This document shows, in pieces, positions 134 to 39,849 of a stretch of DNA of 39,850 nucleotides. How positions within the stretch are numbered: the stretch's first letter is position 1; every line of letters starts with the position of its first letter. Origin of the DNA: a virus (taxonomy: Duplodnaviria; Heunggongvirae; Uroviricota; Caudoviricetes; Crassvirales); the IMG/VR virus record IMGVR_UViG_3300035498_000265, positions 64,001-103,850 of that record; one strand, given 5' to 3'. The notes beneath the pieces are model-generated. The model saw only the letters and a list, made by a program, of their open reading frames with translations. It made no database searches and was not told the origin of the DNA. Position numbers and translations under genes: made by a program.

Positions 134-3100
134 TTATTCACAATTCTTCAAGTTATCTATCCAACTATCAATATTGTCTATCTTAGTACTAATTCCCATT
201 CTCTCTAATTCAGAAGTTAGATTCTAAATATCAAAGTTCTTCCACTTTTCATTATTCTGTATCTTACTTTCTATTATATCATATATCTAGTCAGTTAAGT
301 CCATGAACTACTCTTCTGTACTACTAAGAATACCTTCAAGAGTATAAGAACTAGAGCCTATAATTGAGTCTTGTAACTCAAAGTCATTGTGCTATGGAGC
401 TAAGTCCGCAGGAGTTATTATAGGAGCTTCAGTAATAGGTTGTGCTTCCTAAGTTGGGGGTTCCTCCTATTTCTCAGTGACCTCAGGTGCTTCAATAGGA
501 GCTTCAGTAATCTATACTTCAGGAACTTTAGGAGCCTCAGGTTCAGGTTGTAATACCTAATCCTTAGCTTTCTTAGCAGCTTCTTCTGCCCTTATTTTCT
601 CTAGTTCCTATCTATAAGATTGGATTAACTGATTAGCTAATTCCTCAGGAACACCTTCATAAGTACTAGTACTAGTGTTATAAGCTACTGTTATAGGATT
701 AGAGGTTTCAGCTCCAACAATATAGTACCTTCTAATACCTAAACTACCCATTGACTAAGCCTCACCAGTCTAAACTTTATAAGCCCAAGCAACTTGAGTT
801 TTCTCTTCATTAGAAGTAATAGGAGTATTGTCCTCATGTACCCATCTACCTTTCCTATAAGTATAACTATTACCTTGCACATATAGCTTAGTAGGAGTAT
901 AATCCTCTGAACTAGCAGTATAATCAGATTTATTCTCTACTGGGCTCTTCTATTGAGGCTCACTTAATATAGGCTTACCTGTTGAAGCATCAATAGGAGC
1001 TACATAGTATTTACTACCATAAGTACCTAACTTCTAAGAGTCTGTCATAAGAGCACCAGCTTCATCATATCTCTTTATCCAATTAGGGTCAGATAAGCTC
1101 TTCATGTACAAGTTAATCCTAGGATTAAGATTATATATAGCCTATCTAAACTCCTCTAGAGTAAAACCTCCTTGATTAATATCAAACACCTTAATAGGAG
1201 TTTTATTATTATATAGAGTTATAACTGGGTTATTCTCAGTACCATAATTTATAGTTTTACCAGTATCTCCTTTCTTTAAGCTACTAGATAAACACAATAG
1301 TGTACATAACTCACCCATAGCCATCTCCCTAGTATGATAATCAGGGTCTAGCAACTAAGGTATAAGCTTATTATCTATTAAGTTCTTAATAGCACCATCC
1401 TTTATCTCTGACAATAATACTGGGTTAACAAATATAGGGATAACTTCACCATTAGCAGCAGGCACTAATACATAAACCTAACCCCATTTATTAACTCCTT
1501 TTTGCTAAGGTTCATGCATCTTAGTTACAGGGCCAACAGGTAATATATTATTAAATGTTTGACAACAGAAACCTAAGTCAGCATAGCTCATTTGGTTAGC
1601 TACTGTATGAGTCTTATTGTAGTTATCTATTAGCTCTCCTATGGAATGAGGAACAGATTCACCATCTATTGTATTAATAACATGGCCTGAGTTAAAGGTA
1701 GTCATCTATGTGCTCATATCTGGGTCTACATAGAACCTCTCATTAGGGTTATTAGTGAAGTAATCTACTCCATTCTTTTGTAGAGTGTTCCTAGTGGTAG
1801 TTACTAAGCTAGCAGCAGAAGTACCATCCTAAGCTTTAGTATTCCACATATTACCAATTATCAAGTACTGTTTACCACCAGAAGTAATAACACCACCATT
1901 CTCAGGTAAGTGCTGTTTAGCTACTTTATCAGTATATTCTACTACTAAGAATATATTAGAAGCTACCTTAGAGTCTGCACCTTCCTTTTTAACCTTCATT
2001 AGTTGAATAGTAGGATTAGCCTTTAGCACATTGAATAACTCATCATCCACTATAGCCCCTAAGTTAATCCCTTCCTAAGCTAACCATTCATATATAGGGC
2101 CTTCAGTGTAAGGCACTAACTCATGGTCTTCTAGTGCATTAGAATCATATGGGTTAAAGTATAATCCATGTACTTCTTGCTACTGATTAGTAGTTTCCTA
2201 TGGAGCTGGCTTACTATCATCAATTAAGGTATCCTAAGATACAGGAGTTATATTTAATTGTTCAGCAGCCTACTCTGGGGTCATAGTTTCTACCTAGCCA
2301 TCAGAGTCTCTAGTTACACCTGCAGGTAATTCATCTGATTTAACTTCTGTAGTAGGAGGCTCAGGAGTCTCAGTTTCAGAGGGCTCTGGGGTCTATTCCT
2401 AAGGCTCAGGTGTGTCCTTCTTAGGTTCTTCTTTAGGCTCCTCTTTAGCTTCTTCCTTAGTCTCTGCTTGAGGTTCAGCCTAATTAGCTGGGGTCTCAGG
2501 GGCACTAGGTTCATTCTAAGTATCACCTAAATCAATAGCTGGCCCAGTAGTATTCTCCATAGATTCCATGTCTGGCACAGTCTCATTAGATAAATCTTCA
2601 TCAGAGTCCTAAGTAGCTGCAGGAGCTTTACTAGTGTCATCCTATACAGGAGGCGCTTGCTAAGCCTATTGAGCTTGCTACTATTGCTACTACTATTGCT
2701 ATTGTTGAGCCTACTAAGCCTACTGTTGTTGAGTCTATTGTTGGTCTTGCTATTGCTACTGCCTTATTTGCCTCTCAATATCTTTAACAGCTTGACCTAA
2801 CATTCTTTTTCTCCTATACTCAGTATAAGCAGTAGTTGCACTATCAATAGTAGTTACTCTCTAATAGTCCTCTAGGGCTTGTTTAAGAGTAGAATTACCT
2901 GCTAGTTTAACATCATTAGCAAGTCTATCTAATAGTAAGTCTGCAAGACCTTGCCTCTCATTACCTAAGAAATACTCAGGAGCATAGGCTAACTCATTAG
3001 CAATACTATTAGCAACTTCAACCCATAACTGCTAGTCTTTATCCATCATTAGCTCTCTTAGGCTATCTACAGCTTCACTCATCTTACTAAATTGAGTTAC

Positions 3101-6100
3101 TATAGGGCCTAGAGTAGGATGCCTCTAACCAAATTCCTATAACTATTGAGGAGATAATGATACTCCTGCTATAGGGCCTAGGGTATCTACATCCTTAGTA
3201 GCTAAGTCGTCATAGATTAAATCCATCGTATTTTTATAGATAGCTCTATTAATAGCATTTTTCCTAGATGCAGATAAATCAGTAGTAAAATTAAGGAAGT
3301 CCTACGGATTTTCTTGGATAGCATCTAGTGAGTATTTATTGTTGGAGAGCTCATCTTGTAGTTTGGCGAGCTCCTAGATATATGTTTCTCCTTGGGGGCC
3401 TATGTTTTTCTTAAACTCAGCTATTTCCTTCTGCTATTCTGCAGAGTACATAGTTGGGTTATTAATCATATCATCTATCACCCTAGCATCAGTAGACAGA
3501 CCTTCCTAAGCTGATAACAATCTACTATCCTCTATAGCTGAGACACCTCTATTAAGCTCTGATATTTGTCTATCAGTTGCTTTTATAGCCATTCTAGTAT
3601 CAGTAGCATCTTTATTCAACTACTTAATAGCAGCTTCGTCAGTCTCTGTCTCTAGCTTCTCTTGAATAGATTTAAGTTTATCCTATTTAGCTCTCTATTG
3701 TTCTTTAGCAACCCTAATAAGTTCTCTAGCAGAGTCTACATGATTCTATTTATGAGAGTCTTCCATCTCACCATAAGAACCATCCTTCTCAGAGTCTATA
3801 TTTAAGTTAATGTCTTTAGCTAACTATTGAATATCTCTAGATATTCTTTTATTCTTAGCCATTAACTCTGCTCTTTGAACTAATATAGGATAATTCTTCT
3901 CATCTTCAAATGACCTATCTTGTTCTCTTAAACTCTATTCAGCTTCATTATAATCATTAACAAAGTCACTAGTTCTCTTAGCTACAGTTTGAATTTCCTA
4001 CCAAGCCTAATCTCTCTAGGCATCAGTAATAGGAGCTTGTTTATTAGCCTAATTAGTGCTTAAAGCCTATGTTATTAATGTGTTCTTCTCTTCATCAGAC
4101 ACATTGTCATTAGCTATATCTTGTAATTTTTGAATGTTAGCTTGATTAACTTGATTACTAAATTGATGTAGAGGATTACTACTTAGCTATTTCTAGTTCC
4201 ATACTAGTTTCATAGCTAAAACATCCTAGGCATTAGCTGCTGCTGAGAAATCTTGTGAGTTTTGAGATGCTTGGCCATTTACTATAGCTTGGTTAAGTAC
4301 TCCTAGTTCTGATAGTAGTTGCTCTCTTTCATCAATAGCTTTGTTATATTGACTCATCTACTCAGCCTAGGCTTTCATAACCATTCTAGCTTGCTCATAC
4401 TCACCTACTGCACCTGTTACATAGGTATTAAACCACTGTCTAAAACCTCTAGTTTTCTCCATGAATTCACTAGATTTTTCACCAGCTTCTTCCCTAGCTT
4501 TGTTTTCCCTAGCATAGTCCTCTTTCATCTTTTTATAGCCACCTAGTCTAGGAGCAAAGATACCACCAAGAGCACCTATTTCAAATGCGTGAGCAGCCTA
4601 TTCAGTTAAACCTGCATGAACAGCACCTTCAACACCAGAGTGAATAGCATCCATGTACTCACCTATTGCACTACCACCATGCCAAGTATTAGCATAGGCT
4701 TGTGGGTTATACTGTCTTAAGTACTCAGAGTTAAACTCACTTAGACCAAAACCTGCTGCAAAACCAGTAGTTAGTTCATCAGTATAGTTACTCCAACCAC
4801 CAGATACTAGAGCATTCCTAGCTACATTGTAACTACCTATGACTTTAGGATTAACAGTAGTCCACTTCTTAATACCTAGTAAAGATTTACCTTTATTAGT
4901 GAATTTACCTACAGCATCCTGAGTCATCTTACCATAGGTATTAGTTGCTACCTCTGATTGTAATACTTTCTCAGGCGCTTTAAATACTTTAAGTGGTTGT
5001 AAAGCTGCATTCAGCATACCATACTTAAGATACTCACCTGCAAAGCTAGTCATATAAGAGTCTACAGCAGCTCCCTATGCTAGTCTTTCTAAGTCATCTC
5101 CTCTTTGGTCGGCCATCTTTTTTTGCAACTCAGCATACTTAGCCTAATCATATTGCTGTTTGAAATAAGCTCTATATTCTGGAGTATCTACTGTCATACT
5201 AGTTTTACCCTCAGCACTTTTCTTAATACCTAGAGTTTTTCTATATGCTTTCTCAAGCTCCTGATTATATTCATCAGTAGCTGATAACTTCATAAACTCA
5301 TTATTAACATCATCTTGTAGGTATTGTTGAGCTTGCTATTTAGCAGCATTATAAGTCTATTGATAAGCACCATAGGCATAAGATTGAGCTATAGGAGCAG
5401 CAGATAGAGTAGCATCTTTCATACCTCCTAGTGTAGCTTTAGCAGCACCTTTAGATAATAATGCCTTAGCTCCTCCTTTAGATACTAGTGAAGCTAGGGA
5501 CTCATAGGTAGAAGGGCCTCCAGCCAACCACATAGAAGCTGCTTGACCAACTACTTGAGCAGTCATACCTGATATATCTTGTAGAGTCCCTAATGACCAA
5601 AAATCTGGGCCACTCTAACCTGGCTTTAAGACATACATCTCATTACCTGATACACCATTATTAGCTTCAGCCTATTGTTGTTCCTTCTATGACCAAGTGT
5701 TATATTGGTCTACTTTATTAAGATAATCATCCCTTAACCAGAATAAACCACCATTATCAGACAGTGATTTAAACCCTGATTCCTCAGGAGTTTTGCCCTA
5801 TAAATTCTTACCCGTAGATATGACACTAGCTAATTCACCAAAGGCATTAGACTCACCCTCATGACCTGTTAAATCACCTATTATAGAGCTAGTAATATTA
5901 CCTAGTTCTGCTAATCCCCATACACCAAAGCTTAGCATCCTAGGAGCTACATTATCAACAACTGTATGAGCAAAGTTCCATCCAGTTTCCCAGCTTCTTT
6001 TAAAGAATCCTAGGTTATCACTCACAAAAGTTTGCATCTCATTATCTAAGTACTAGTCAGCTTTCTATTTACCAAATAATTGTTCATAAGCTTTATACTT

Positions 6101-6994
6101 AGATAATATTCTTTTCTATTCTTCTGGTTGTAAGTTCTCCTCAAATAGGTCTTTATAAGCTCTATAATAACCAGAGCCTTCATGTTTTTCACCATCTTCA
6201 TCAGTATAGCCAGTAGCTATTTGATTAAAGGCTGAGTATATATCATTAGAATCCTTAGGGCCTAGTTCCTTAGCAGTTATACTCTAAGAAATACTTTCAG
6301 CAGTTTTATCAGCTACAGAGTCATAGTAGTCATCTATTTTCTTTTGTATGCTAGACATAATGTTATTATTCCTAGCTGATAAATACATTCTCCTAGCCTC
6401 TTCTAACCTGTCTTTCTAATATTTCTCAGGGTTCTCTTCTGCCTCTGCTCTACCTACAGCTGTTGACTTATATTTCTTATCTGCCTCTTTATAAAAGTCA
6501 TTGAAGGTTCTCTTACTAAATTTATTAGGGTCTTGGTCTTCATCCATACCAGGAGTCCTCCATAATTGAAGGTCAGTAATAGCACCTCTTAGCCAAGAAG
6601 AGCCCTCTTCATCCCCTTTATTTATATTATTCTTAGAGGCTTTCTATATTTCATCCTAGGTCATATAGCCAGATTTAAATAGCTCATCTGACAACTGAGC
6701 AGCTAATCTAGGATTACTATTATATAACTCAAGGAGGGGAGATGTATCCCCTCCTAATTGATTATTATTATGTAGTTCTAGTAGTTTATTACCTTTTAAA
6801 TAAGCATTAGCATCCTCTTCATCAACATCTGGGTTAAGTCCTAATTGAGCTAACTATTGTTGTCTATATAGAGCTGAAGCCTGAGTTGCTGTATAATTCT
6901 AAGGCAATTGACCACTGGCCTTTGCCTTCATTATAAACTAATATCTTTGTTCTGAGTTTAAACTACTTAGTTTAGGTAAACTTGGTAACTTCAT
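134..6994 (-). CDS. Giant virion cargo/ejection protein, 2286 aa (TAG=Gln)
   Basis: One frame with no TAA/TGA from ATG 6994 (MKLPSLPKLSS) to TAA 134 joins six ORF-track fragments. Contains Gly/Ala-rich amphipathic segments (about 4500-5900), a polyQ tract and Pro/Glu-rich linkers. Position after muzzle and two cargo genes matches crAss-like synteny. Confidence 0.8.
2657..2761 (-). repeat. Polyglutamine low-complexity tract using mixed TAG/CAA/CAG codons
   Basis: 35 in-frame codons: 14 TAG, 13 CAA, 2 CAG, 6 others (4 Ala, Thr, Asp). Confidence 0.9.
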
Positions 6995-6995: not shown

Positions 6996-8549
6996 TTATT
7001 TATCTTTAAGTACTAACTGCTTCTTCACTGCTTTGTCATCATTCTTACCTACTACTTTACCATCTTTATCATAGTATACATAGTAGTAATTAAAGGCATC
7101 ATGATTAGCGGCTACTTCAGGAACCTCTGAATCAATATAGTGCTGTTCTGCAGTTTCTAGTCTATCATATCCACCAGTAATAGGAGTGGCTTGAGTAATA
7201 TCATCTTTTGATATAAGCTGCTTAGTTCCTGGTACATAACCATAGTTTGGACCCTTAACCATTGGGAATTCAACCCCAATTATTTGACCTAATTTAGTTG
7301 TCTTAGTGCCTGAACCAGTTTTACTCCCAGTAGTAGTTGTGCCTACTTTTGGAGTTGGGTTTTGAATAGTTGCTTTACTAGAGCCTTTACCAGAAGTAGC
7401 AGTAACAGCAGAAGCCGATGCATCTGCAATCTTAGTAGGAGCACTTCTAGTGTAAGTACCACTCATAGCAGGAGTTAATTTTACTTTATCTGGGGTTACT
7501 TTATAACCTGGTTTATCATACCAATAATCTTTACCATCACTGCCAGTGTACTTATATTGTAACTTACCATCCTTAGTCCTAGTAGCTTGGTTAGGAGTTT
7601 CTGTCCAAGTAGTGTATCCATTGCTAAATACTCTAGTACCATCAGGATTAGTGTACAGAGGTTCTTTACCTAAAGCTCTATTCCTATCTTGTTGCTTCCA
7701 TTGAAACTCTTGTTGAGCTATACTTAATTGAGCAGCTTGTCTAGCATCAGCAGCTCTTTGAGCTCTAGTCATATACTCACCATTCTATTGTAATGAAGTC
7801 TAATAGTTATTCAAACCTGCATATAAGCCTTCATTAATAGCTCCCTCAACAGCTGTTCTACCTGCATCATCAAATCTATCTAAGCCTCCTAATTGACCTA
7901 TCATTTGATTCCTAATTTGTGCAAATCTATTAGCAGCTGCTGGATTACCTGCAATAGCCTATTGTAATTCTTGTAGACTACCTATGCCTTTCTTTTGAAT
8001 TACCTCTAGGAACTATGGGCTCATGGAATTCTTAATAATGGGGTCTTCCATTATACTCTGAGCAGTAGCCTAAGCTAATGCTGCTGTTCTACTAGCTATA
8101 TCTTTTCTACTCTCAAACTTATTATTAGCTGTTTGACCATGTAGGAATTTATCTAATGAATTATATCTACCTACTTCAAATATAGCATCAGAACCTGCCT
8201 AATCCCTAAGTGCATTAGCTGCGTTCATAGCTTCACTAGCTTTAGCTATTGGAGTTATATTAGAAGCATACATCCTCTTCATATTAAGGAGTTGTCTTCT
8301 ATTATTAGGGTTCATGCCTGAGCTAAAGTCATCAACTACAGAATTTAGCTAATCAGCATAGCTTTTATACATAGCATAAGCCTCAGGGCTATTCTATCTA
8401 TTAGCTATGTCTTTCCAAGCTTCAGTCTATGATACTAAGTCTGAATAAGCTGTCTCAACCTACTAATAATCTTGCCTATAATCTTCAATAGGCTACATTA
8501 GCTCCTTATAGGTGAATGGGTTAAATTTACTATCTACAATTATATTCAT
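6996..8549 (-). CDS. Virion cargo protein, 517 aa (TAG=Gln)
   Basis: ATG 8549 MNIIVDSKFNPFTYKELMQP to TAA 6996, no TAA/TGA in frame; N-terminus resembles the crAss-like cargo motif (S-K-F-x-P-F-[ST]-Y-x-E-L); abuts neighbours by 1 nt. Confidence 0.75.
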
Positions 8550-14200: not shown

Positions 14201-15295
14201 CACATAGCCACTAGAAGCTAACTTAGGAACAGATACACCTTTTAGCTTAGAATTAACACTACTTAGACTATCTTTAACATCACTAGTTAAGCCATCTATA
14301 CTACTAATAGCTTGTCTCTTAATCTTAAGATTACCCAAGAATAATGTACCATCTTTAGCACACATACTATCAGCAATGACTTCCTCTCCACCTATATATA
14401 ATAGTGAACTTGGGTCTACTGTATCACCAACTGTACCAGTGTCAGTGAACTTAGCTACTCTATTATTAATAGTACTTAATTCAATATCTTGTACCCTTTT
14501 ACAAGTAGGTATAGCGTCAAGTGAAGTCCTTAGTATACTATATATTCTAAGGTAATCAAAGTGTTTATCTACATTACTTACCTCTATCTCAAATGCATTA
14601 GATACAGTGGCTTCAGGAGAGCCACCCCTATCATTAAATGAAGTATATAATAGAGGAGTAGTATGAAAGATATTAGTCTCTTGACCATACTTATTATAGT
14701 AAGTAAAAGCATATTGAATTACCCCTGGGGGAAACTATCCACCTGAACTAGCTACTCTAGTTACATTGACAGTCTCATCTAACTCTAACTCAGGTACAAA
14801 GTCAAATGAGCCTTCCCAATCATAGGGACTGTGCATTATATTAATAATCCTAGGTTGGTTTAAACCATCAGTCCAATATACCTTTTGGATGTTCTCATTC
14901 TCATAATCTCCTATAGCTTCTATAGGATGTTTAACATCAAACCCTAGTGATTTCTATCCTTCATTAGGGAATAAAGTAGTAACTAATGGGTCTGATTCTG
15001 ACATATCTATCCTTAGGATAGAATCACTATTAGCACCCTAATGAACAAATAATACTAGGTAATTATTTAATACACAGTGACCTATAATAGTTCCTTGTAT
15101 AGAATAAGTACCCCCTAGACTATTCTTCATAGTAAGTTCTTTAGGGCCTCTCTCATTAGTTACAGTCAAGAGGGTTTCTCCCCCTCTTGCTGTAATTCTA
15201 ATGTTATGTGCATCTATTAAATATTCTGGGGTCTACTTAGATACTGCTGCATCCTATTGTAGCCCTATAAATGTATGATTAGAAGATTTTTGCAT
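11210..15295 (-). CDS. Muzzle / tail stabilisation protein, 1361 aa (TAG=Gln)
   Basis: ATG 15295 MQKSSNHTFIGLQQD to TAA 11210, open throughout. Motifs YWTDGLNQPRIIN, YCFQDNGICNILFNSRVQIPTSDGVPIEISNNYKVDG and KKKFRVWRIQIPRD...RDRIRNTW are typical of the crAss-like muzzle. Confidence 0.85.
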
Positions 15296-20819: not shown

Positions 20820-20843
20820 GATTATAACTATTTTTATTGTATG

Positions 20844-24346: not shown

Positions 24347-24381
24347 GTTGAAGTTATTATTACTCAAAGAGTAAATTAGTA

Positions 24382-28653: not shown

Positions 28654-28869
28654 TTAATATCTCTCCTTAAGTTTCTCTATCTTCTATTCAAAGCCCTCTT
28701 TATAATGATGAACCTTAGATTTTTCATCAAAGCCTTCAGCTTCTTTCATAGCTTTCCTAAAGCCATGTTCATAACCCTCTTTGAAAGCCTTTTCTAAGAT
28801 GTGGTCATAGTCTTCTTTACCCTAGCTTCTTTCATCTAGTTCATCCATAACATGATATATCTTTGCCAT
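28654..28869 (-). CDS. Small charged hypothetical protein, 71 aa (TAG=Gln)
   Basis: MAKIYHVMDELDERSQGKEDYDHILEKAFKEGYEHGFRKAM...; fills the gap between neighbours. Confidence 0.6.
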
Positions 28870-28878: not shown

Positions 28879-29385
28879 TCATTTACCGCTTTCATCTTTA
28901 AGTTTTAACTAAGTCATTAAGTCCTTCATTAAATCTGACATACTAGACATCTATTGTTTAAGTGTATCTATCTCTTGTTTCTATTGCTTCTATTCAGCAA
29001 ACTCTGGGTTTAGTCTTTGTAATAATTCTTCACAGTCTTGTACAATCTTATTATGATAGCCAACGCTATTTATTATACTTAGACTCTTCTGTCTTAGTGA
29101 GTCAACCTCTGCATTCATAGCTTCCCTACTAGTTGTAATAACCATATTACCATTAACACCCTAATCAGCTACATCTAAATTAGCTGGCAACTTCTATAAA
29201 GTTATATTAGAGTCATTAACTTTAACAGTAACATCTACTACTAATTCCTATGGCTACATGAAGTTAGCAACTGGGAATTTAGGTACAGGCTAACTTACAT
29301 TTAGCACTGTCCCTATCTCTACATAAGGAGTAGAATCTTTATGAAGAATATATATCTAACTATTAGTTCTTAAATTTGAAAACAT
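28879..29385 (-). CDS. Hypothetical protein with C-terminal coiled coil, 168 aa (TAG=Gln)
   Basis: MFSNLRTNSQIYILHKD...LPANLDVAD...SREAMNAEV...LLQRLNPEFAEQKQQKQEIDTLK; TGA stop. Confidence 0.7.
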
Positions 29386-29396: not shown

Positions 29397-29897
29397 TTAA
29401 GAGTTTGTAGATTCATCAGTAGTACTAGTATCCTTAGGTTTTGAACTACTAGCTACAGTAGTAGCATTAGTAAACTCCATAAACCTAACTACACCAGTAC
29501 ACTTATTTATATAAGCTAATCTCTAAGTATTACCTACTACATTGCTACCAGTTACATTTGTATTCTAGCTATCTACTATATTTAGCTTAGTAGTGCCTGA
29601 TGTATTAGTAGTACTAGTAACTGTTGAATTAAATGCTCCTGTAGGAACAACTAATGTTACTGGTAAAGACTCTCCACCACTAGGAACATCATCATGTATA
29701 GTTAATAGTATTAGAGACTCTGATGGTAGTCTACTGTATAAGCAAGGATTAATGCCATAATCTACAGTAGTACTAGTTAAGGCAACTGCATTTGTGGACA
29801 GTTTAAATATACCTCCTACATCTACTCTTGGTAAATCCCCTTGAGTAGATATAGGAAGATTAGGTGCCCACCAATAAGGATTTAATGTTCCAAACAT
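29397..29897 (-). CDS. Hypothetical protein, 166 aa (TAG=Gln)
   Basis: ORF-track fragment extended through two TAG codons to TAA 29397. Confidence 0.65.
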
Positions 29898-29916: not shown

Positions 29917-30840
29917 TTAACATCCACAAGTACTATAAGTACTTAAAGCACTAACACCTAAGTTAAGTGGCTGACTATATGAAACTGGAAGTAAGTTAGA
30001 CATAGCGGGAATATAAGGTATTGACACTGTTGAAGGCTGCTTACATTCAATAGAGGCTAGTCTACTACTTAAGTCCGTCAATGCATTGTTAACAGGAATC
30101 AATGACTGTGCTTGGTAAGCCTAAATAGCTGCAGTCTAATGCTCATTAGATAATTGTGAAACTAATGCAGAGTTCTTCTCTCTAAGAGCATCAATCTTAT
30201 CATATAGTCCCTGAGTAGTTATAGCATCAAGCTTAGCTAAGATAGCTTGGTTATTGCAATTCATAGTATTAGTTAAAGTACTAGTTTGATTGCTCGTAGC
30301 TATCTAGTTCTCATAGCCTTGAGTTGTTATACTATTTTGAATAGCACAGCAGCTTTGAGCTAATTGGTTTCCAATCTAGCAGTTGCCTGATTGAATAGCA
30401 TTAATTATCTATTGACCACTCATACCTACCTAGTTGCCTACACCTTGAATAGCTGATTGTGTTTGGCAAATAGCATTTTGTAGAGCACTTACATCACATC
30501 CTAGAGTTGTAGCTAATTGATTAACAGCAGTACCATTACCATTAATAGCTTGTAGTAATACTTCTCTACCAAAGTCATTGTTTAGTTGATTAGGAATACC
30601 ATCAGCTCTGTTATTACCAAAGAGGCCATTACCACCTTGACCTCCCCATAGCCAGAACATAATAATTACCCAAATCCACCAGAAGCCCCCGCCTCCCCAA
30701 CAATCTTGGTTCTTAGAAGCATTAGTTAGCATAGCCATCAAATTAGGGTCAATCCCTCTGTTATTCATAAGGCTAGCAATCAATGCAGATGAGTCAAAGT
30801 TACTCCTTTCATTAGTGTCAAAAACATAAGTTTTTTCCAT
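29917..30840 (-). CDS. Conserved gut-phage membrane-anchored coiled-coil protein, 307 aa (TAG=Gln)
   Basis: MEKTYVF...GGGGFWWIWVIIMFWLWGG (TM-like)...QSCCAIQNSITTQGYENQIAT...STCGC; joins two fragments. Confidence 0.75.
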
Positions 30841-31008: not shown

Positions 31009-31608
31009 TCAAATAGATTTATATTCACTAGTAGCATCAAATGAAGGACAAGCTTTATTAGCATAGTCCTTATGGCTGTGGATAGTAGCCTTAGGATACT
31101 TAGCTTTTAATTGCTTAAGTAGATTTAATAGAGAAGTCTTCTATGCATCTGTTCTAGTATCCTTAGGAGTAGTTCCATTAGAGGCACATCCCCCTATATA
31201 GCAAACTCCTATAGAGTTAGAGTTATGCCCAGTGCAATGAGCTCCTATCTTAGACTCATCCCTACCTGCATTTATAGAACCATCCCTATATATAACCCAG
31301 TGATAGCCTATATCAGCAAAGCCTCTAGCTAAATGCCACTATCTTATTTGAGCTACTGTGTAATCTTTACCTTCTGGTGTAGCTGAGCAGTGAACTATTA
31401 TCTCAGTTATATTCCTACTATTAGTTACTCCTAGCTTAGCCCAAGTAGCCTAACCAACTATGCCATCAGCAGTTAAGCCATTAGCTTTCTAGAATGCTTT
31501 AACAGCCTCTTCAGTTATATCACCAAATATACCATCTGCTATTAAATTTAGCTTCTACTAGAGAGTTTTAACTTCAGCTCCCTTACTTCCTTTCTTTAGT
31601 GTTGTCAT
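31009..31608 (-). CDS. Endolysin: N-acetylmuramoyl-L-alanine amidase (Amidase_2, T7-lysozyme-like) with N-terminal peptidoglycan-binding domain, 199 aa (TAG=Gln; absent from ORF track)
   Basis: LKKGSKGAEVKTLQQKL...DGIFG...AVKAFQ...DGIVG (PG_binding_1), IIVHCSAT, DIGYHWVI, GAHCTGHN..SIGVCYIGG, HSHKDYANKACPSFD. Confidence 0.9.
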
Positions 31609-31900
31609 ACTTATAGTCTCTTATAAATTTATCTAGGTCTTTCTTACTCCAAGATAACTCTTTAAATCCAGCTGTATGAGTTCCTTTAGGTAATCTACCA
31701 GACCTAATATAATTATCAAAAGTAGCTCTACTAACATTTAAGTACCTGTGTGCCTAGTACTTACTTAATCTCTATTCCTTATCTGTGAGCTACCTTATTT
31801 TATCTATTATCTCAAACTCTTCCTACTCAGTTAAATTAGAATTACCTGAGTCTATGTTACTAACTACTTTTAACAGTAGTTCCCTTATGGTATTTATCAT
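31583..31900 (-). CDS. Small HTH (excisionase-like) DNA-binding protein, 105 aa (TAG=Gln)
   Basis: LSKYQAHRYLNVSRATFDNYIRSGRLPKG is a classic HTH_17/Xis-type pattern. Confidence 0.7.
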
Positions 31901-32261
31901 ATAGATATATTATTATAAATAAGAAAATACCAGTAACTATAGACTATATCATTAAATATCCTAAGTCACTTACTGGTATTCCTATATAAGTGTCTATTAT
32001 ATTAAGTGCCCATATTAATACAATATAATGTAAAGGCATCCTATGATAAGCACAGAACTTAAATACATAGGATGAAAGGTACAAAAATAGGATAGGAAGT
32101 AATGATACCCCACCTATATAACTCAGAATAATTAAATCTATATCAAAGTAAGATAATACTGTATTTAAAAAGAAAATCCCAGCCAAGATGACTGGGATTA
32201 TTTTAAGTACATATAATTCTACTTTATAAAGATATTTACTTAAGCTTTCCGCCGCAGCCAT
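31857..32261 (-). CDS. Multi-pass membrane protein (holin candidate), 134 aa (TAG=Gln)
   Basis: About four hydrophobic segments, basic C-terminus, inside the lysis cluster. Confidence 0.6.
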
Positions 32262-32339: not shown

Positions 32340-32537
32340 TTACTTATTATTAGACTAATCAGATTCACTAGGTCTCATATAATCAACTGAAACTAGGTAA
32401 GGCTCCCACTTACCATTTTTGAACCTATGTATAACCTTGATGTCACCAGTCTTTGTATCTTTATCTACCCATAGAACATCTGTTCTAGTAGGAGCTAAAT
32501 GAGATTCATATAAATTATTGAGGATTAACTTTTTCAT
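32340..32537 (-). CDS. Hypothetical protein, 65 aa (TAG=Gln)
   Basis: ORF-track fragment plus QSNNK to TAA 32340. Confidence 0.6.
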
Positions 32538-32904
32538 CTCCCGTCATATTTAATGTTGAATAATCTTTATTCCTTATCTGACAGCTTAAATCTGTACAGA
32601 TAGTAGTAGTAATTTTAAGTACTTGGTCTTTCAAGGTATCTATTTCTCTCTTCAGTTGTTTGTTTTCTTGCATGAGTTCTTCCATGGACTATCTTAAGTG
32701 TTCATTGTCCTCGAGAGCTTTATTCAACCTAGCTGTGGTATCATCACTAAGTTTCTCATAAAACTCTAGAGACTTCTACATGTTCTCTATAAGATTTCCA
32801 TCAACCTCACTATTATATTTCTTCCTAGCAAAAACCCAACTAGTCCATCCACTTATAATAGAAGTGATTACTCCTACTCCTCCCGTAATAAGTATCTCTG
32901 TCAT
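32515..32904 (-). CDS. N-terminal TM plus coiled-coil protein (holin or inner-membrane spanin candidate), 129 aa (TAG=Gln; absent from ORF track)
   Basis: MTEILITGGVGVITSIISGWTSWVFARKK then heptad-rich region and TICTDLSC. Confidence 0.65.
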
Positions 32905-33475: not shown

Positions 33476-33961
33476 TTATTTTAGTAACTCTGAATACTCT
33501 TCCCAGTTGACAGCATCCTTAGCTTCCCAACCCTTAGACAGAGTCTCATTAATAAACACTAGAGCTTTAAAGTAAAAATCTTTAAGGTCATCTAGGCTTT
33601 CAAATTTATAATAAACAGGGTTATCAGTAGTACCTAGTTTAAATGTAGGCAATGTTTCACCATTGCTTTGAACAGCTATATCATAAGCTGCTTTATAATT
33701 AAACTGATTCTCCATAGATAACCATACTGGGATTTCTTTCCAAGTAAATCCTGTTAGTATCTCTTTGTCAATCTCTGCATTAAACCAGCTCAATATTACT
33801 TCTTTTATCTCAGCTAGACTTGGCTTATGTTCAAAGTTCTCTGATAAATAAGATGAATTACCTTCCTCATCAGTTTCCTTATTCCAAGTTATCATCCATA
33901 TATCTCTGATATAATTTGTACATTGTACTGGGTCTGCAACTCCATGTATCTTTATTGCCAT
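33476..33961 (-). CDS. Hypothetical protein (DUF4376-like), 161 aa
   Basis: Intact ORF with GFTWKEIPVWLSMENQFNYKAAYD motif; start overlaps the RT stop. Family name recalled, not searched. Confidence 0.6.
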   Translation of the reverse strand: MAIKIHGVADPVQCTNYIRDIWMITWNKETDEEGNSSYLSENFEHKPSLAEIKEVILSWFNAEIDKEILTGFTWKEIPVWLSMENQFNYKAAYDIAVQSNGETLPTFKLGTTDNPVYYKFESLDDLKDFYFKALVFINETLSKGWEAKDAVNWEEYSELLK

Positions 33962-34932
33962 TTTATAAATGTATTAAATAAATTATGCCCATTGCAGTGA
34001 AGACAATAACCTTTAATAGAAGCTATAATCTCCTACCTTCTTCTCTTGCTCTTAAGATAAGATAATTTAACTTGAGCTTTCTTCTTGATTCTTTTTCTAA
34101 CTCTAGAGTAAGCACCATTGAAAGTAACAAAGCCTAGGTAGTCTAGACCTACATTAAGTGGAGATACTCTGTAATTGCTCTTGATTGTCAACTTACTATC
34201 TTTTAGTAAGTCCTTTACTATATTATGAATCTACCATAGATACTCTTTAGTTGGGCCTAATATTACAACATCATCACAATATCTATAGTAGAATTTAATT
34301 CTATATTTACATTTAAGAGGCATATCTAATAACCACCCTAAGAATAAATTACCAAACACCTAAGAAGCTCTTAAACCTATACTGAGACCCTTATCTAACA
34401 TATCAACGAAGTTATCTAGTATAGGTAATAAAGTCTTATCTTTAATATATCTCCTAATACATACCTTCATTAACTCATGGTCAATGTTATGATAGTATTT
34501 ATTAATATCTATCTTGTAGAAGTATTTAGCTTCTTCTGGATGGTTTCTTATGTCTCTCTATATAATAGACTTCAAGTACATTGTGCCTCTGCCTTTAATA
34601 CTTGAAGCTGTTGTGTATATCATTCTCTTTACTAATAAATCATCAAGTATAGTCATTATAGCATTTACTGCTATTCTGTCCCTATAGTTGATGATTTGAA
34701 TTTCCCTCTCTTTAGCACCCTCTTTAATAATCCTAGTATCATAAGTGCCAAGTCTAAAACTACCAGTCTATATAGCCTCAATAGTTTCTTTAATTACTTG
34801 GTCTTTATTGCTCATTATAAAATGAGCTTGCCTAGTCTTCTTTCTCTTAGTACCCCTGAGTACTACTTTAATACTTCTTTCAATGTTTTCAGGAGTACAA
34901 ATCAATTTGATTAAGTCATTATACCTATGCAT
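33952..34932 (-). CDS. DGR reverse transcriptase, 326 aa (five in-frame TAG; absent from ORF track)
   Basis: KEREI...YRDRI, SIKGRG, YFYKIDINKYYHNIDH, GLSIGLRASQ, YYRYCDD (34270-34281), GLDYLGF; adjacent to TR. Confidence 0.92.
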
Positions 34933-35454: not shown

Positions 35455-38400
35455 TTAATTTTCTCTTATTTCTGTGAGATTCAGGTAGAAATCTATGTCT
35501 GATGTTTCTACTATATTACCCCTGAAAATCAACCGAGAGCCGTAGTTAGTGCTAGAATAACCAACCGAGTTATCAGCATTCAAGCAGAAAACCCCACCGG
35601 ACGCACCAGCGAAGTTGGAAGACCGCCTAAGAGCCCTTGTAGAAGCCCAAGTGCTTCTTAAGGTAGTATCAGAACTTTGATAGTCACAGTAGCCTTTAAC
35701 AGTACCACCACCAGAGGTACTACAACTACAAATATCACAATACTTACCATGGACAACAGCCTGGGGATAATTACCTGATGGGCCTACAAAGTAGACTCTT
35801 CTAGTAGATAAGTCTGGTTGAGTTATTCTCAGCTTACCACAGTTAGCAGAAGTCTCATTAGCCATAAATACTCTATCCATCCACTCTCCGGCATTACCCT
35901 GAATGTTCTCAAGACCTAGGAATACAGGAACTTCTATATTAGTGTAAGAGATTACACCACTTGAAGAAGTTACTGGGATAGAGGCATTAGCCCAAGTTTC
36001 AGCAGTAGCTATACTTGTTGGTATAGTAGTATCAGTCATACCATATTGTCTTGAAGCACCTAACTTTCTACCAGTAGTAGATGAGCCAGCACCTAAAACA
36101 TTTTGAGAGTTCCTTCTACCATACTTAGCAGTAAACAACATAGCTATTAGCTTATCAGCTTCATAGTCTACTAGTTGTAAACCTCTTGAGTAAGCAGCCT
36201 CACTAAGACTGTGCTAGAACCAGTCACCTTTAACATTAATATCAGCTACATCTTTACCTAGAGTTCCTACAGCAGCTGTCTTAGTTCCATTGAAAGAAGT
36301 ATAAACAGTTAATGAGTCATCTGAAGAAAGCTCAGAAGCAGCTATACAAACAGGCTCTGAATAAACCCAATCAGGCTCCATATCAGCAATCCAGTCCTTA
36401 GCATTCTCTGCAGTCATCTCTTCACCACTATTAAACTTACTTCCTTTATGTAGTACAATGTCACAAGGGTCAGCTGTAATAGAACCTGATACATATTTAG
36501 GAACACCTATGTAGAACCACTTAGCTCCTGAGGGAACAGTTACAATAGCAGGCATACCATTATAAGCATATACACTTGATGATACATAGAACTCACCTAC
36601 ATTTTGTACAGTACCTTCAGTATTAGAAATAATCAAGCCATTAGCACCAGTGAATACACAGCAAGTTTGACCTACTGATAGTGGGTATCTAACCTTCTTA
36701 TAACCTTCAACATTTACCCTAACAATATCATAGCTACTATTAGAAGTAGAAGGAATCCTATCATCAATATAGTTAGCAGCATTAGTAAAGCTGATAACCC
36801 TACTTTCTTTATATAAGCCTTCAGCATCAGCATCTAAATCTATGGGAGAGGCTTTTAAGTCAGCTATTGTTAGAACTCTAGTCTCACTAGAAGTACTAGG
36901 CCTAGTTTCTTGTGAACTAAAACAAGTATATTTCCTACTTAGAGATACACTAGTTGGGCTAAGATAGTTAATACCTTTATACCAGAAACCTGGGAATTTA
37001 ACATAAACTTCACCATAACCACTAGATTGTAGACCAGATAGATTGGCTTCTCTTCTAGTTAAGGAAGAGCCATATCCTGTAGAGAAGTATCTACTATCAG
37101 TGTCTTCTAGCTGAATAACGTACATTGTACCACTCTTATCCCTGGCATTTAAATAAGCTTTATCAGTAGCCTTAGGATTAGTTTCAATCTAAACAGATTT
37201 ACCTTTAGTAACTACTTTACCTAGAACTCTATGGACTTTACTTAAGATGTTAGCAATATGACCAGAAGGTACATATCTAGTTGAGTTTCTAGCACCAGTG
37301 TTATTATCAAAGTTAGTGATATTGCCTTTAACTACAGTACCAGTTACATCTGAGAATCCTGATTCATCTGTAATAGATTCATCTGACTCTATGATTGTGT
37401 ACTCAGGTTGCTTAATAGTTAGACTAGTAAACTTGCTACTATACTCTTTAACTATGTCATCATCAGTGTAAGTGGGAAGTTGTAAAGTACCTACTAATTG
37501 AGCACCAGTAGTAACCTAGTTGCCATCCTCATCAAGACCATAGTAGTCTGTGAATTGGTCTAGCCAAGTAATACTATCTTCTCTGTCAATGCCAGTTATT
37601 CTCAAATACTTAGTTGCTGCATTGCTTGATTTAAGCTTCTCAAATAAGCTCTCCCAATTAATATTAGGACAATCATTAACAAGAAGTTCACTTAATTGTG
37701 ACCAATCTTGAGCAGTTAAAGTATCTGAGTCTGAGTTATTATATTGAAGTAAATTTAGATTAGATAGATATAATCCCTTAGGAGTTCCTAAGATTAGGTT
37801 CTCAATAGGGGCACCTGCAGCTAATCTAACTGAACTAATACTAGTACCTGATACATTTAAGTATTTAAGTTTACTAGCTTTATTCAAACCTGAGAGCCCA
37901 GTGAATGTAGAATTAGATAAATCTACATAGTTAATAAGAGGACAGTCAGTAATATAAATATTACCACTACCATTACTTCCCAGATTAGAAGCTACTAACT
38001 TCTATAGGTTAGTTAAACCATTAACATTAATAGTATCCCCAGTAGTAGCTTTCCAAGAACCTTCAGAATCAATATATAATTCCTTAATTCTAGAAGCACC
38101 TAATACATTAGCAGGGTTATTAGCAGCATTACCTGTAATCTCCATACTTACTGTATAGTTGTTAGTGCTGTCAGCTCTCTAGTGGTCTCTTATGCCTGTG
38201 TTAGAAGTTTTCCAAGCAAAGTAGTAAGGAATACTAGATACTATAGTTACTTTATTAGTTAAAGCTGCATCACCTACATAGATGAAGGCATCTTGTTCAT
38301 AGTTACCAGCTTGGTACTTAGAGTCAAGCAAGTTAAATCTGTTCTCTAGAGTATATGTCCTATGAGCTTCCCTAGAACCCTGTGCAGTACTAATAAAGTT

Positions 38401-39849
38401 AGTGCTAATATCTGAAGGATACCCTGTCTCAGTTAAAGGGGTAATATATTTATATTTTTGTGAGTAGTTATACTGCCTTTGACTCCAGTTATTTACATAC
38501 TGACCATTAAAGATTTCTTTGAAGTAATCTGCACTGAATTTACCAGAGCTTCTCATTAACTTACATACACTAGATAAGTTAATAGCAGTCTTAGTATCTA
38601 CTACACTGTCAATAACTCTTTGAGTTGAGAAGTTAGCTCTAATTAAGTACCATAACCAGCTATCATGACCTTGTAGAGCATATTGACCTACACCATAGTC
38701 ATAAGTAGTTCTATCAGTTAGGTAATCATAAGCTAAGTAACAGTCATTCCTCTCACCTAATACTGTATCACCATCATAGTACTAGAACATCCAGTGAGTA
38801 CCATCCATAGTGTACATCATCATATTCTTAGCTCTTTGGTCAACAGCTAATAGATAGTCTGTCCACAGATACCAAGCGCAAACACTACTTAGGTTAAAGT
38901 AATCCTAGACATTGTTAATAAAGTATTCACAAGTCCAGTCAAGAGCTTCAAAGTCCTCAGACTTCATTGAGTTAAGGTCATAAGCTTTCTTACCATTAGC
39001 AGTAGCTACTTCCTTAGCACAAGTACCAATGAAGTTAAATACTCTCTTCAATTGTGTTGGTACATAAGCATATTGCTCAAACCCAGATGTAGTAGCTAAG
39101 CTATCAATACCATAATCAGCAGCTTGGTCAGTTACATCTGCAGGGGCTCTTACTTCTAGTTGATTTGAGAAAGCATCACTAGGATAAGTACTAGCTTCAT
39201 CAATGGCATCCCTTGTAGTAAATTTAATATGGAATAAGTCAAGGTCGGCGTTGTTATCAAGGAATTCAACACATATTGGTTGATAACTACCATCTTTATT
39301 ATAAGTACCATCTGCATCGTACTTATAGGCACCATCAAAACCAAAGACTTCACCTGAGCTAGATTTATCATTGTTAAAGTTATACTGACCCATGTATTGA
39401 AGATTAACATAGTTGCTATCTTCAAGAGTGTCAGTATAATCAGGGTTAACAACAGAGTCTGCAGCAAATACATCAATAGGAAATCCCTCAATAGCTACTC
39501 TAGTCTTAATATCATTAACACTAGTTTTATACTCTCTAGTCTGAGCTGGGTTCCTCAGTGACTCTACATTCTTAGTAAGTTCATTGAATACCATAGCACC
39601 AGCTGTGTTATGAGTCATTGAAGAGTCCACATAGTCAACCTTAAGACAGCAAATAGGAACCTCAACAGCATTCTAGCTCATAGCATACTTGAAGTTGTCT
39701 TTAACTTCACCACCAACTATGAATGAGCCTGCAGCAGGTTTTTCACTCTTAGTCTTTTTATTGAAGTTAATTCTATAGTTTTTCCTAGGTCTCTTAGTAG
39801 AAGTAGTACCCTGGATTCTTATAGCAGCTTCAGTGTGAGTAAAGTTAAA
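35455..39849 (-). CDS. Giant DGR target / putative receptor-binding protein (partial, >1460 aa): CotH-kinase-like, LRR-like and C-terminal C-type lectin domains (TAG=Gln)
   Basis: Five fragments in one frame separated only by TAG (8 in the window); open at the window edge. RIQGTTSTKRPRKNY, GQYNFNNDK, DQRAKNMM...YYDGDT; LxxLxL periodicity at about 37650-38100; GNAGEW and VR at the C-terminus. Confidence 0.8.
35530..35634 (-). repeat. DGR variable repeat (VR)
   Basis: Encodes ALRRSSNFAGASGGVFCLNADNSVGYSSTNYGSRL, a C-type-lectin-fold VR signature, 25 codons from the end of the gene. Confidence 0.95.

What the first reader, a model, noticed from the sequence alone, without database searches (positions are those of the whole stretch)
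134..39849. Region-wide amber recoding: TAG read as glutamine
Seen: ORF fragments line up in single frames broken only by TAG; with TAA/TGA as the only stops, genes tile the minus strand with few-nt gaps or TAATG/ATGA-type overlaps; no gene ends in TAG; whole genes (RT, endolysin, IHF-like, a ring protein) are missing from the standard-code track. Known: TAG-to-Gln (table 15) occurs in late genes of several crAss-like lineages. Inference: a CUA-anticodon suppressor tRNA is encoded elsewhere, since none is in this window.
Basis: partly seen in the sequence, partly recalled or inferred. Interest (0 to 1): 0.7.

Follow-up and report, generated by a model that had tools for sequence, protein, structure and literature searches.

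The report
TAG-to-glutamine recoding in crAss-like phage
The virion and lysis genes of this crAss-like gut phage use the stop codon TAG as a glutamine codon, read by a suppressor tRNA that the phage encodes elsewhere in its genome; this habit is well documented in such phages, so the find is sound but ordinary.

Summary
Confirmed. The window is the last 39.85 kb of a complete 103.7-kb circular crAss-like phage genome (Steigviridae-like; major capsid protein 75% identical to crAss001). Reading TAG as sense raises ORF cover from 34% to 95%; TGA-sense and TAA-sense give 34% and 45%. This yields 30 tightly tiled minus-strand genes with 252 in-frame TAGs in 25 genes. All end in TAA or TGA.

Glutamine is the decoded residue. 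In conserved alignment columns, 19 of 28 TAG sites are Q. TAG sits at the signature Gln of the retroelement reverse transcriptase and at two Gln of the T7-lysozyme fold. CAA/CAG plus TAG roughly restores the Gln content of unrecoded orthologues.

The predicted suppressor exists: a Gln-derived tRNA(CUA) at genome 13242-13330 (minus strand), outside the window. No release factor or GlnRS gene was found. The replication block fits the standard code.

TAG-to-Gln recoding of late genes in this phage group is published (Yutin 2021, Borges 2021/22, Peters 2022). This is a new member of a known kind.

The tRNA carries an extra arm whose 7-nt loop shows a normal Gln anticodon (UUG). This scan has already reported that design on this genome and on many others. 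I re-tested it: all eight long-form suppressors from a scan that did not specify the arm sequence keep YUG-A there.

The parts
134..6994 (-). 2286-aa gene at the position of crAss001 gp47 (RNA-polymerase-associated cargo protein). It has 89 in-frame TAG.
   Evidence: 26 intact homologues at 37-50% identity. TAG sites have a Q majority at 30/76, and 10 of 14 TAG sites in conserved columns are Q.
6996..8549 (-). 517-aa cargo protein C2 (gp46-like), 12 TAG
   Evidence: crAss001 44520-45299, 25% identity; Q opposite 6 of 10 TAG; PMC10172136
8551..11103 (-). 850-aa cargo protein C1 (gp45-like), 15 TAG
11210..15295 (-). 1361-aa gp44 homologue (annotated 'stabilization protein' in crAss001; I take it to be the muzzle protein), 30 TAG
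   Evidence: phrog_28748, 1e-86; 39% to crAss001 gp44
15301..18147 (-). 948-aa collagen-like tail fibre protein, 20 TAG
18137..18472 (-). 111-aa ORF, TAG-free
18442..18810 (-). 122-aa ORF, 3 TAG
18813..19517 (-). Tail barrel ring protein R1 (gp43-like), 234 aa. It has 9 TAG against 5 CAA/CAG.
   Evidence: PMC10172136. Sites 112, 180 and 188 are Q in 47-56 of 57 relatives.
19517..20041 (-). HU/IHF-like protein (gp42-like), 174 aa, 3 TAG
   Evidence: 53% identity
20041..20811 (-). Ring protein R2 (gp40-like), 256 aa, 7 TAG
   Evidence: Sites 58 and 73 are Q in 60-61 of 62 relatives. The C-terminal extension is shared with a subclade.
21070..21594 (-). Tail hub protein A (gp38-like), 174 aa, 4 TAG
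21636..22637 (-). Capsid auxiliary protein (gp36-like), 333 aa, TAG-free
   Evidence: PMC10172136
22668..23372 (-). Ring protein R3 (gp35-like), 234 aa, 5 TAG
23375..24367 (-). Ring protein R4/R5 (gp34-like), 330 aa, 3 TAG
24382..25365 (-). gp33-like protein, 327 aa, 1 TAG (codon 9)
   Evidence: 55% identity
25440..26942 (-). Major capsid protein (gp32-like), 500 aa, TAG-free
   Evidence: phrog_11589, 5e-110; 75% identity to crAss001
26973..28112 (-). gp31-like protein, 379 aa, TAG-free
   Evidence: 53% identity
28250..28651 (-). 133-aa ORF, 4 TAG
28654..28869 (-). 71-aa ORF, 2 TAG
28879..29385 (-). 168-aa protein of phrog_28898, 10 TAG. This is the highest TAG density in the window.
   Evidence: 1e-54. 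9 of 10 TAG sites are Q in both relatives aligned.
29397..29897 (-). 166-aa ORF, 2 TAG
29917..30840 (-). 307-aa protein of phrog_16490, 6 TAG
   Evidence: all 5 aligned TAG sites are Q
31009..31608 (-). Endolysin: peptidoglycan-binding domain plus T7-lysozyme-type amidase, 199 aa. It has 6 TAG against 2 CAA/CAG.
   Evidence: phrog_822, 4e-61. TAG90 and TAG156 align with Q of T7 lysozyme (1lba/1aro).
31857..32261 (-). 134-aa ORF, 2 TAG
32340..32537 (-). 65-aa ORF, 1 TAG
32515..32904 (-). Holin / lysis-regulatory protein (gp28-like), 129 aa, 2 TAG
   Evidence: 51% identity
33071..33469 (-). 132-aa ORF, 3 TAG
33476..33961 (-). 161-aa protein of phrog_19239, TAG-free
33952..34932 (-). DGR-type reverse transcriptase, 326 aa, 5 TAG
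   Evidence: phrog_1423, 6e-78. TAG125, TAG191 (the Q of the IGxxxSQ motif) and TAG300 align with Q of Bordetella bRT (8ub7).
35455..39681 (-). 1408-aa tail-type protein (phrog_14959), 8 TAG. The frame stays open to the window end.

Best explanation
This is block-wise genetic-code-15-type recoding in a crAss-like (Steigviridae-like) phage.

Shown:
- In the late (virion, cargo, lysis, retroelement) genes, TAG is a sense codon that stands for glutamine.
- TAG makes up 45% of all Gln codons in the 25 recoded genes of the window.
- TAA and TGA remain the only stops.
- The phage encodes its own tRNA with anticodon CUA, derived from tRNA-Gln, in the tRNA array about 26 kb away on the circular genome.
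- It encodes no release factor and no GlnRS.

Inferred:
- The host GlnRS charges this tRNA, which then competes with host RF1 at UAG.
- The replication block can be read by the naive host ribosome.
- The late genes become translatable only once the suppressor has accumulated, so recoding acts as a timing lock on virion and lysis proteins.
- The most abundant capsid proteins avoid TAG because suppression is slower or leakier than normal decoding.
For: Sense reading: ORF cover rises from 33.8% to 95.1% only when TAG is read through. There are 252 in-frame TAGs and no in-frame TAA or TGA over 12,535 codons. Stops coincide with those of unrecoded orthologues.

Glutamine:
(a) In 80 related IMG/VR loci, most of them unrecoded, codons opposite TAG are CAA 17.2% and CAG 10.6%; the next is GAT at 7.3%. 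CAA is two mutations away from TAG, so this is not mutational proximity.
(b) The best-fitting residue by likelihood is Q (-2.91), then S (-3.38).
(c) In columns at least 80% conserved, 9 of 14 TAG sites are Q against a 3.1% background. In the gp47-like protein it is 10 of 14 against 5.4%. P = 5e-11 and 2e-10.
(d) Against cultured, standard-code crAss001, Q is opposite 23 of 73 TAGs.
(e) Solved-structure anchors: RT TAG125, TAG191 and TAG300 align with Q in Bordetella bRT, and TAG191 is the signature SQ. Amidase TAG90 and TAG156 align with Q in T7 lysozyme.
(f) Gln budget: recoded genes have 2.07% CAA/CAG plus 1.71% TAG, against 3.16% Q in unrecoded orthologues. TAG-free genes match their orthologues.

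Machinery: tRNA(CUA) at genome c13242-13330, Rfam tRNA 59.7 bits. Its acceptor stem, D arm and 3' end match phage tRNA-Gln(UUG). A 73-nt CUA tRNA lies at the same place in the tRNA array (between tRNA-Leu(UAG) and tRNA-Thr(UGU)) of a recoded relative. No other suppressor tRNA was found. No RF-1 domain or GlnRS/GluRS domain was found in the genome.

Two domains: the plus-strand block at 21.4-52 kb is 93% coding under table 11, with 37 of 40 stops TAA or TGA.

TAG avoidance in capsid genes: 0 of 47 Gln codons are TAG there against 252 of 563 elsewhere, P = 8e-13.

Precedent: PMC7886860, 10.1101/2021.08.26.457843, and PMC9523058 (metaproteomic proof in other crAss-like phages).
Against: There is no protein-level evidence for this genome, so Gln is inferred from homology only.

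In the structural genes, TAG sites are less often Q in relatives than CAA/CAG sites are (21% against 58% of sites). Many TAGs therefore sit at variable positions. A minority of conserved columns show another residue (R, F, D, L, S, E, A).

The suppressor tRNA has an unusual 17-nt extra arm of type-II appearance, and its charging has not been tested. Its minimum-energy fold is not a cloverleaf.

The timing-lock role and the reason for TAG-free capsid genes are inference. In four recoded relatives the capsid gene does contain TAG.
Confidence: 0.93

Rival explanations
1. TAG is a sense codon but stands for another amino acid. Ser, Leu or Tyr are the candidates, because the suppressor tRNA has a long, type-II-like variable arm of the kind that SerRS, LeuRS and bacterial TyrRS recognise.
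For: The tRNA is 89 nt with a stem-loop in the variable region. Ser is the second-best residue by likelihood and second opposite TAG in crAss001, at 9 of 73.
Against: Q outnumbers every other residue several-fold in all tests. It occupies functionally fixed Gln positions, and the Gln budget closes. Acceptor stem, D arm and discriminator match tRNA-Gln, not the phage's own tRNA-Leu, -Ser or -Tyr. The extra arm has a 7-nt loop, unlike the 3-5-nt loops I recall for Leu and Ser variable arms (from memory).
Confidence: 0.03
2. TAG is ambiguous. It is read as Gln only part of the time and still terminates part of the time. Truncated products or true TAG-ended genes would then be part of the phage's programme rather than a clean reassignment.
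For: No phage RF2 and no evident means of removing RF1 were found. Three early ORFs end in TAG, with back-up TAA/TGA 4-11 codons downstream. The most abundant capsid genes avoid TAG, as expected if read-through is incomplete.
Against: A 2286-codon gene with 89 TAGs could not be completed unless read-through per site were very high. No window gene has its orthologue-supported end at a TAG.
Confidence: 0.25
3. The TAGs are damage: pseudogenes of a decaying or defective phage, or assembly or sequencing error. They would not be a code change.
For: None beyond the bare presence of in-frame stops.
Against: Only one of the three stop codons occurs in frame, 252 times, and never TAA or TGA. The genome is complete with terminal repeats. 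Several related lineages show the same pattern. A matching suppressor tRNA is present.
Confidence: 0.005

Closest known systems
TAG-to-Gln (NCBI table 15 type) late-gene recoding in crAss-like phages of the Beta/Steigviridae, Delta and Zeta groups (Yutin et al. 2021, PMC7886860; Borges et al., 10.1101/2021.08.26.457843; Peters et al. 2022, PMC9523058)
   Same: In-frame TAG is confined mainly to the structural and lysis block. The replication block is standard-code compatible. The suppressor tRNA(CUA) is phage-encoded. Recoded and unrecoded genomes are close relatives. The tail tube/ring, amidase and unknown-function families prefer TAG over CAA/CAG, as reported there.
   Different: Nothing essential differs. 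Local details: capsid, auxiliary capsid and gp31-like genes are wholly TAG-free, the phage has no canonical tRNA-Gln of its own, and the suppressor is the long, extra-arm form.
Bacteroides phage crAss001 (Kehishuvirus primarius, MH675552), cultured, with a solved virion structure (PMC10172136)
   Same: Same gene order from gp28 to gp47. MCP is 75% identical, ring proteins 43-62%, muzzle protein 39%.
   Different: crAss001 uses the standard code, ends about 15% of its ORFs in TAG and carries tRNA-Gln(UUG) but no CUA tRNA. This genome also has a DGR reverse transcriptase, a different endolysin and a collagen-like fibre gene.
E. coli supE-type amber suppressor, tRNA-Gln with anticodon CUA
   Same: Both are Gln tRNAs whose anticodon became CUA by a G36-to-A change. 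U35 and the acceptor-stem determinants are retained. Amber suppressors tend to be glutaminylated (PMC9976931).
   Different: Here the suppressor is a phage gene that serves hundreds of essential sense codons. It also carries an added stem-loop that shows a UUG triplet.
Short (71-74 nt) phage suppressor tRNA(CUA), as in the recoded relative G005 and 57 of 65 matches of a scan that did not specify the arm sequence
   Same: Same D arm, same anticodon loop CUCUAAA, and the same position in the tRNA array.
   Different: The tRNA of this genome has 16-17 extra nucleotides between the anticodon arm and the T arm.

Membership tests
Code-15-type (TAG to Gln) recoded phage genome | In-frame TAG, and only TAG, interrupts conserved genes. 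Coding density is restored when TAG is read as sense. | tested here: met
   Cover rises from 33.8% to 95.1%. TGA-sense and TAA-sense controls give 34.3% and 44.8%. 252 TAG, 0 TAA and 0 TGA in frame.
Code-15-type (TAG to Gln) recoded phage genome | Homologues from standard-code genomes carry Gln at the TAG positions. | tested here: met
   19 of 28 conserved columns are Q. 23 of 73 are Q against crAss001. 5 of 7 are Q against solved structures, including the RT SQ motif. The best-fitting residue by likelihood is Q.
Code-15-type (TAG to Gln) recoded phage genome | TAA and TGA are kept as stops; TAG is not used as a gene end in the recoded block. | tested here: met
   27 TAA and 3 TGA stops. Stops lie at the same aligned position as in unrecoded orthologues, some of which use TAG there. 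0 of 30 against 20 of 125 TAG stops, P = 0.014.
Code-15-type (TAG to Gln) recoded phage genome | A tRNA with anticodon CUA is available, usually phage-encoded. | tested here: met
   Genome c13242-13330, found by ARAGORN and by the Rfam tRNA model at 59.7 bits. It lies outside the window; none lies inside.
Code-15-type (TAG to Gln) recoded phage genome | Two-domain layout: early/replication genes are standard-code compatible, late genes are recoded. | tested here: met
   The plus-strand block at 21.4-52 kb is 93% coding under table 11.
Code-15-type (TAG to Gln) recoded phage genome | Gln is actually inserted at UAG in the protein. | not testable with these tools
   This needs proteomics. It was shown for other crAss-like phages in PMC9523058.
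Crassvirales, Steigviridae-like | crAss-type major capsid protein and a conserved virion gene order. | tested here: met
   MCP is 75-81% identical to crAss001, cr85_1 and cr106_1. 15 window genes hit crAss001, from gp28 to gp46, and lie in the same order. No phylogeny was built, so family and genus rank are not assigned.
tRNA-Gln-derived suppressor | U1-A72, a Gln-type D arm and discriminator, and an anticodon one change from CUG. | tested here: met
   Alignment with phage tRNA-Gln(UUG) of G005, crAss001 and cr85_1. Identity rules are taken from PMC9976931. Charging itself was not tested.

The most novel reading that the evidence does not exclude
The extra arm of the suppressor tRNA (outside this window, at genome c13242-13330) is a functional 'spare glutamine anticodon'. 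It is a 3-4-bp stem with a 7-nt loop, CUUUGAA, that mimics the anticodon loop of tRNA-Gln(UUG). It would let the host GlnRS, which depends strongly on anticodon recognition, charge a tRNA whose real anticodon is CUA. That would address the question, which Borges et al. left open, of how phage suppressors get charged without a phage synthetase. Evidence here: a viral-contig scan that did not specify the arm sequence returned 65 Gln-like CUA tRNAs. Eight were long forms, and all eight keep Y-U-G-A at the loop centre while flanking loop positions, the stem and the rest of the tRNA vary. One stem pair covaries, G-C in 6 and U-A in 3. This scan has already reported the same design on this genome and on many others, so it is not new to the scan. 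I found no description of it in the paper library.
Probability: 0.35. Interest if true: 0.8.

Novelty: new member of a known kind. Interest (0 to 1): 0.3.

Why it matters
For annotation: under table 11 two thirds of this window looks non-coding, and the RT, endolysin, ring proteins, muzzle protein and cargo proteins vanish. Any gene call on this genome must use TAG = Gln for the late block.

For biology: this is one more well-resolved case of a phage that switches the code of its host mid-infection. Unrecoded relatives at about 80% capsid identity show how fast the switch evolves. Two details may repay experiments. First, the most abundant capsid proteins strictly avoid TAG while ring, amidase and cargo genes prefer it. 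Second, the suppressor tRNA has an extra arm that bears a Gln anticodon.

Tried and rejected
- The search for related loci with the gp46-like protein found no relatives; it is too divergent for the pattern search.
- tblastn of the 2286-aa protein against crAss001 gave no hit at 1e-4. Homologues came from the protein database instead.
- A strict pattern for the suppressor found only two short forms. Three of four viral matches to the arm-specific pattern were not tRNAs.
- The arm-specific scans are biased towards CUUUGAA. They were not used for the claim that YUG is conserved, which rests on the unspecific scan.
- I asked whether TAG245 of the gp40-like gene is a former stop that is now read through. 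It is not: the C-terminal extension is shared with a subclade that has R, Q or N there.
- I asked whether the 17-nt insert was copied from another phage tRNA or from elsewhere in the genome. No second copy exists.
- No RF-1 domain or GlnRS/GluRS catalytic domain was found in the genome.
- No further RNA families were found in the remaining 54 kb.
- The minimum-energy fold of the tRNA did not give a cloverleaf and was not significant, z = -1.56. That says little for a tRNA.
- The difference in TAG-stop use between the early block and relatives is not significant: 3 of 40 against 20 of 125, P = 0.29.
- Whether long-form suppressors go with loss of the phage's canonical tRNA-Gln could not be judged, because the loci were too short.
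Full report
WHAT THE WINDOW IS. The window is bases 64001-103850 of a single 103,850-base record. The ends of that record repeat over 127 bases, and it is classed as complete with direct terminal repeats. The true genome is therefore a circle, or a circularly permuted molecule, of about 103.7 kb. G+C is 32-38% with a steady negative GC skew. The major capsid protein (window 25440-26942) is 75% identical to that of the cultured Bacteroides phage crAss001 (Crassvirales, Steigviridae). It is 80.5% identical to uncultured phage cr85_1. Fifteen window genes hit crAss001 genes from gp28 to gp46 and lie in the same order. Names are taken from the crAss001 virion structure paper (PMC10172136).

Under table 11 the window has 28 ORFs of 80 aa or more, and most of it looks empty. 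With TAG read through there are long, abutting minus-strand frames, the largest of 2286 codons with 89 TAGs.

ORFs of at least 100 aa cover 33.8% of the window under table 11 and 95.1% with TAG as sense. Opening TGA instead gives 34.3%, and opening TAA gives 44.8%.

A non-overlapping gene set has these properties:
- 30 genes, all on the minus strand, with 12,535 codons and 94.6% coding.
- 252 in-frame TAGs in 25 genes.
- 27 TAA and 3 TGA stops.
- Many junctions of the TAATATG, TAATG or TAATTATG kind.

The coding frame has no TAA or TGA at all, while the other two frames of the same DNA have 542 and 1,814.

They are whole and recognisable under the recoded reading. The window contains no tRNA.

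WHICH AMINO ACID. I masked every TAG as X before aligning, so that the test would not be biased. Six lines of evidence agree on glutamine.

(1) Eighty related loci were fetched around the capsid gene. Most carry almost no in-frame TAG, at most 0.07 per 100 codons. The codons opposite this phage's TAGs are CAA (17.2%) and CAG (10.6%); the next is GAT at 7.3%. CAA is two substitutions from TAG, so this is not a neighbour effect.

(2) I used the substitution pattern of each real amino acid in the same alignments as a model. The TAG columns fit Gln best (mean log-likelihood -2.91), and Ser is next at -3.38.

(3) In columns where at least 80% of relatives agree, 9 of 14 TAG sites are Gln, against 3.1% Gln among all such columns. 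For the 2286-aa protein, aligned to 26 intact homologues of 37-50% identity, the count is 10 of 14 against 5.4%. P = 5e-11 and 2e-10.

(4) Against crAss001, whose code is standard, Gln lies opposite 23 of 73 TAGs.

(5) Distant homologues with solved structures give anchors:
- In the reverse transcriptase, TAG125, TAG191 and TAG300 align with Gln of the Bordetella retroelement RT (8ub7). TAG191 is the Gln of its IGxxxSQ signature. The other two TAGs face Lys and Ala.
- In the amidase domain, TAG90 (IRQWH) and TAG156 align with Gln of T7 lysozyme.

(6) The glutamine budget closes. Recoded genes have 2.07% CAA/CAG plus 1.71% TAG, where their unrecoded orthologues have 3.16% Gln. TAG-free genes have the same CAA/CAG content as their orthologues.

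One qualification. In the structural genes, TAG sites are less often Gln in relatives than CAA/CAG sites are (21% against 58% of sites). In the 2286-aa protein the two are alike (39% against 44%). Many TAGs thus sit at variable positions, as if new Gln codons were accepted there. The slight Gln excess fits this.

STOPS. For more than ten genes the TAA/TGA stop lies at the same aligned position as the stop of unrecoded orthologues. Some of those orthologues use TAG at that spot, for instance 11 orthologues of ring protein R1 and 17 of the gp33-like gene.

crAss001 and cr85_1 end 13 of 84 and 7 of 41 ORFs in TAG. The window ends 0 of 30 in TAG, P = 0.014.

A suspected read-through of an old stop in the gp40-like gene turned out to be a genuine alternative C-terminus shared with a subclade.

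EXTENT AND PATTERN. Recoding is not limited to the window. The minus-strand block continues round the circle through portal and terminase-sized genes, to about genome position 2.6-11.5 kb. The plus-strand genes at 52-64 kb also contain TAG.

The plus-strand block at 21.4-52 kb is 93% coding under table 11. Its stops are 24 TAA, 13 TGA and 3 TAG, and each TAG is followed by a back-up stop within 4-11 codons.

Within the window, five genes are TAG-free: the capsid protein, the capsid auxiliary protein, the gp31-like protein and two small genes. Together they have 0 TAG among 47 Gln codons, against 252 of 563 in the other genes, P = 8e-13. The first two are the most numerous virion proteins, with nine copies each per asymmetric unit (PMC10172136). 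My inference is that suppression costs speed or yield. This is not universal: four recoded relatives have TAG in the capsid gene.

Ring protein R1, the amidase and the phrog_28898 protein use TAG for 62-75% of their Gln codons. Borges et al. report TAG preference in tail-tube, amidase and unknown-function families; I have this only as summarised in 10.64898/2026.08.21.746148.

THE MACHINERY. ARAGORN finds 21 tRNAs and a tmRNA in the genome, including one with anticodon CUA at 13242-13330 on the minus strand. Rfam's tRNA model scores it at 59.7 bits. No other suppressor turned up, either at a relaxed ARAGORN threshold or in an Rfam scan of the rest of the genome.

Its acceptor stem (U1-A72), D arm and 3' end match the tRNA-Gln(UUG) of crAss001, cr85_1 and a recoded relative. 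Its anticodon loop, CUCUAAA, is one change from a CUG loop. The complete recoded relative G005 has a 73-nt CUA tRNA at the same place in the array, between tRNA-Leu(UAG) and tRNA-Thr(UGU).

This genome has no canonical tRNA-Gln, no RF-1-domain protein and no GlnRS/GluRS catalytic domain. Charging by the host GlnRS and competition with host RF1 are therefore inferred. The inference agrees with the known tendency of CUA tRNAs to be glutaminylated through U35 and the 1-72 and 3-70 pairs (PMC9976931).

THE EXTRA ARM. The tRNA is 89 nt because of 16-17 added bases between the anticodon arm and the T arm. These form a short stem with a 7-nt loop. I had noted the long arm on my own.

I tested it as follows. 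A scan of viral contigs for Gln-like CUA tRNAs that left the variable region unspecified returned 65 matches. Eight are long forms. Their loops are CUUUGAA, CUCUGAA, CCCUGAA, UGCUGAG and CUCUGAC. The centre is always UUG or CUG, the two Gln anticodons, followed by A. Loop flanks, stems and acceptor stems differ.

On ten distinct long forms, 96% of cells in the five-helix structure pair. All seven acceptor-stem pairs covary. The extra-arm stem has two invariant C-G pairs and one pair that switches between G-C (6 sequences) and U-A (3 sequences). Independent metagenome assemblies carry near-identical copies, so the insert is not an assembly error.

The same design has been reported by this scan on many other genomes. 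I found no paper that describes it.

Whether it really guides GlnRS is untested. A side arm cannot easily reach the anticodon-binding domain in the usual L-shaped complex, so I give that reading about one chance in three. The short-form suppressors show that the arm is not required for recoding.

COMPARISON WITH WHAT IS KNOWN. [quoted passage not shown] Recoding was mostly in late genes, switches occurred over short evolutionary distances, and suppressor tRNAs were common in Beta and Zeta (PMC7886860). Borges et al. proposed the timing model and noted that how the suppressors are charged is unknown. Peters et al. showed Gln at TAG by metaproteomics in two crAss-like phages (PMC9523058). This window shows every defining feature that can be tested by sequence. 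It is a new member of a known kind. It is valuable for correct annotation but not surprising.

NOT DONE. No proteomics is available. No phylogeny was built.

Noticed in passing
window 34995-35127 (-): A match to the Rfam RT-3 RNA motif (RF03068; 42.8 bits, gathering score 40.5) lies directly upstream of the reverse transcriptase gene, inside the 522-nt gap before the 1408-aa tail-type gene. This is consistent with a diversity-generating retroelement cassette.
   Followed up: no
genome 21057-21392 (+), locus L085:1558-1895: Phage-encoded tmRNA (Rfam RF00023, 73.7 bits, E = 1e-27; ARAGORN tag peptide ADTYTTAYDMAA). Speculation: in a phage that suppresses UAG, it could clear ribosomes that run off host messages ending in UAG.
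   Followed up: partly
genome about 13331-13400 (-), upstream of the suppressor tRNA: TTTG-N20-TATCTTTG lies 19 nt before the tRNA 5' end. As I recall it, this fits the Bacteroides housekeeping promoter consensus (TTTG / TAnnTTTG). It would mean the host RNA polymerase transcribes the suppressor. The timing is unknown.
   Followed up: no
window 134-6994 (-): The gp47-position protein is unusually Gln-rich: 4.6% CAA/CAG plus 3.9% TAG gives 8.5%. It has no detectable BLAST similarity to crAss001 gp47, although it sits in the same place.
   Followed up: partly
loci L077, L066, L001, L072, L069, L073, L070, L002, L071, L004: Ten of 80 relatives at 77-94% capsid identity are TAG-recoded to very different degrees (0.5-2.0 TAG per 100 aligned codons). 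The other 70 are not. The complete relative G005 (L069) has TAG in only a few genes and still keeps tRNA-Gln(UUG). These look like different stages of the same switch.
   Followed up: partly
locus L100:11175-11265 (+): A 91-nt tRNA with anticodon CCA (Trp), but with a type-II-like D arm and a long variable arm, in a roughly 178-kb phage contig that also carries a short CUA suppressor.
   Followed up: no
window 20812-21069 and 31609-31856: These two gaps of about 250 nt in the gene tiling are overlapped by alternative TAG-containing ORFs (20844-21245 with 8 TAG; 31583-31900 with 4 TAG). The gene calls here are uncertain.
   Followed up: no
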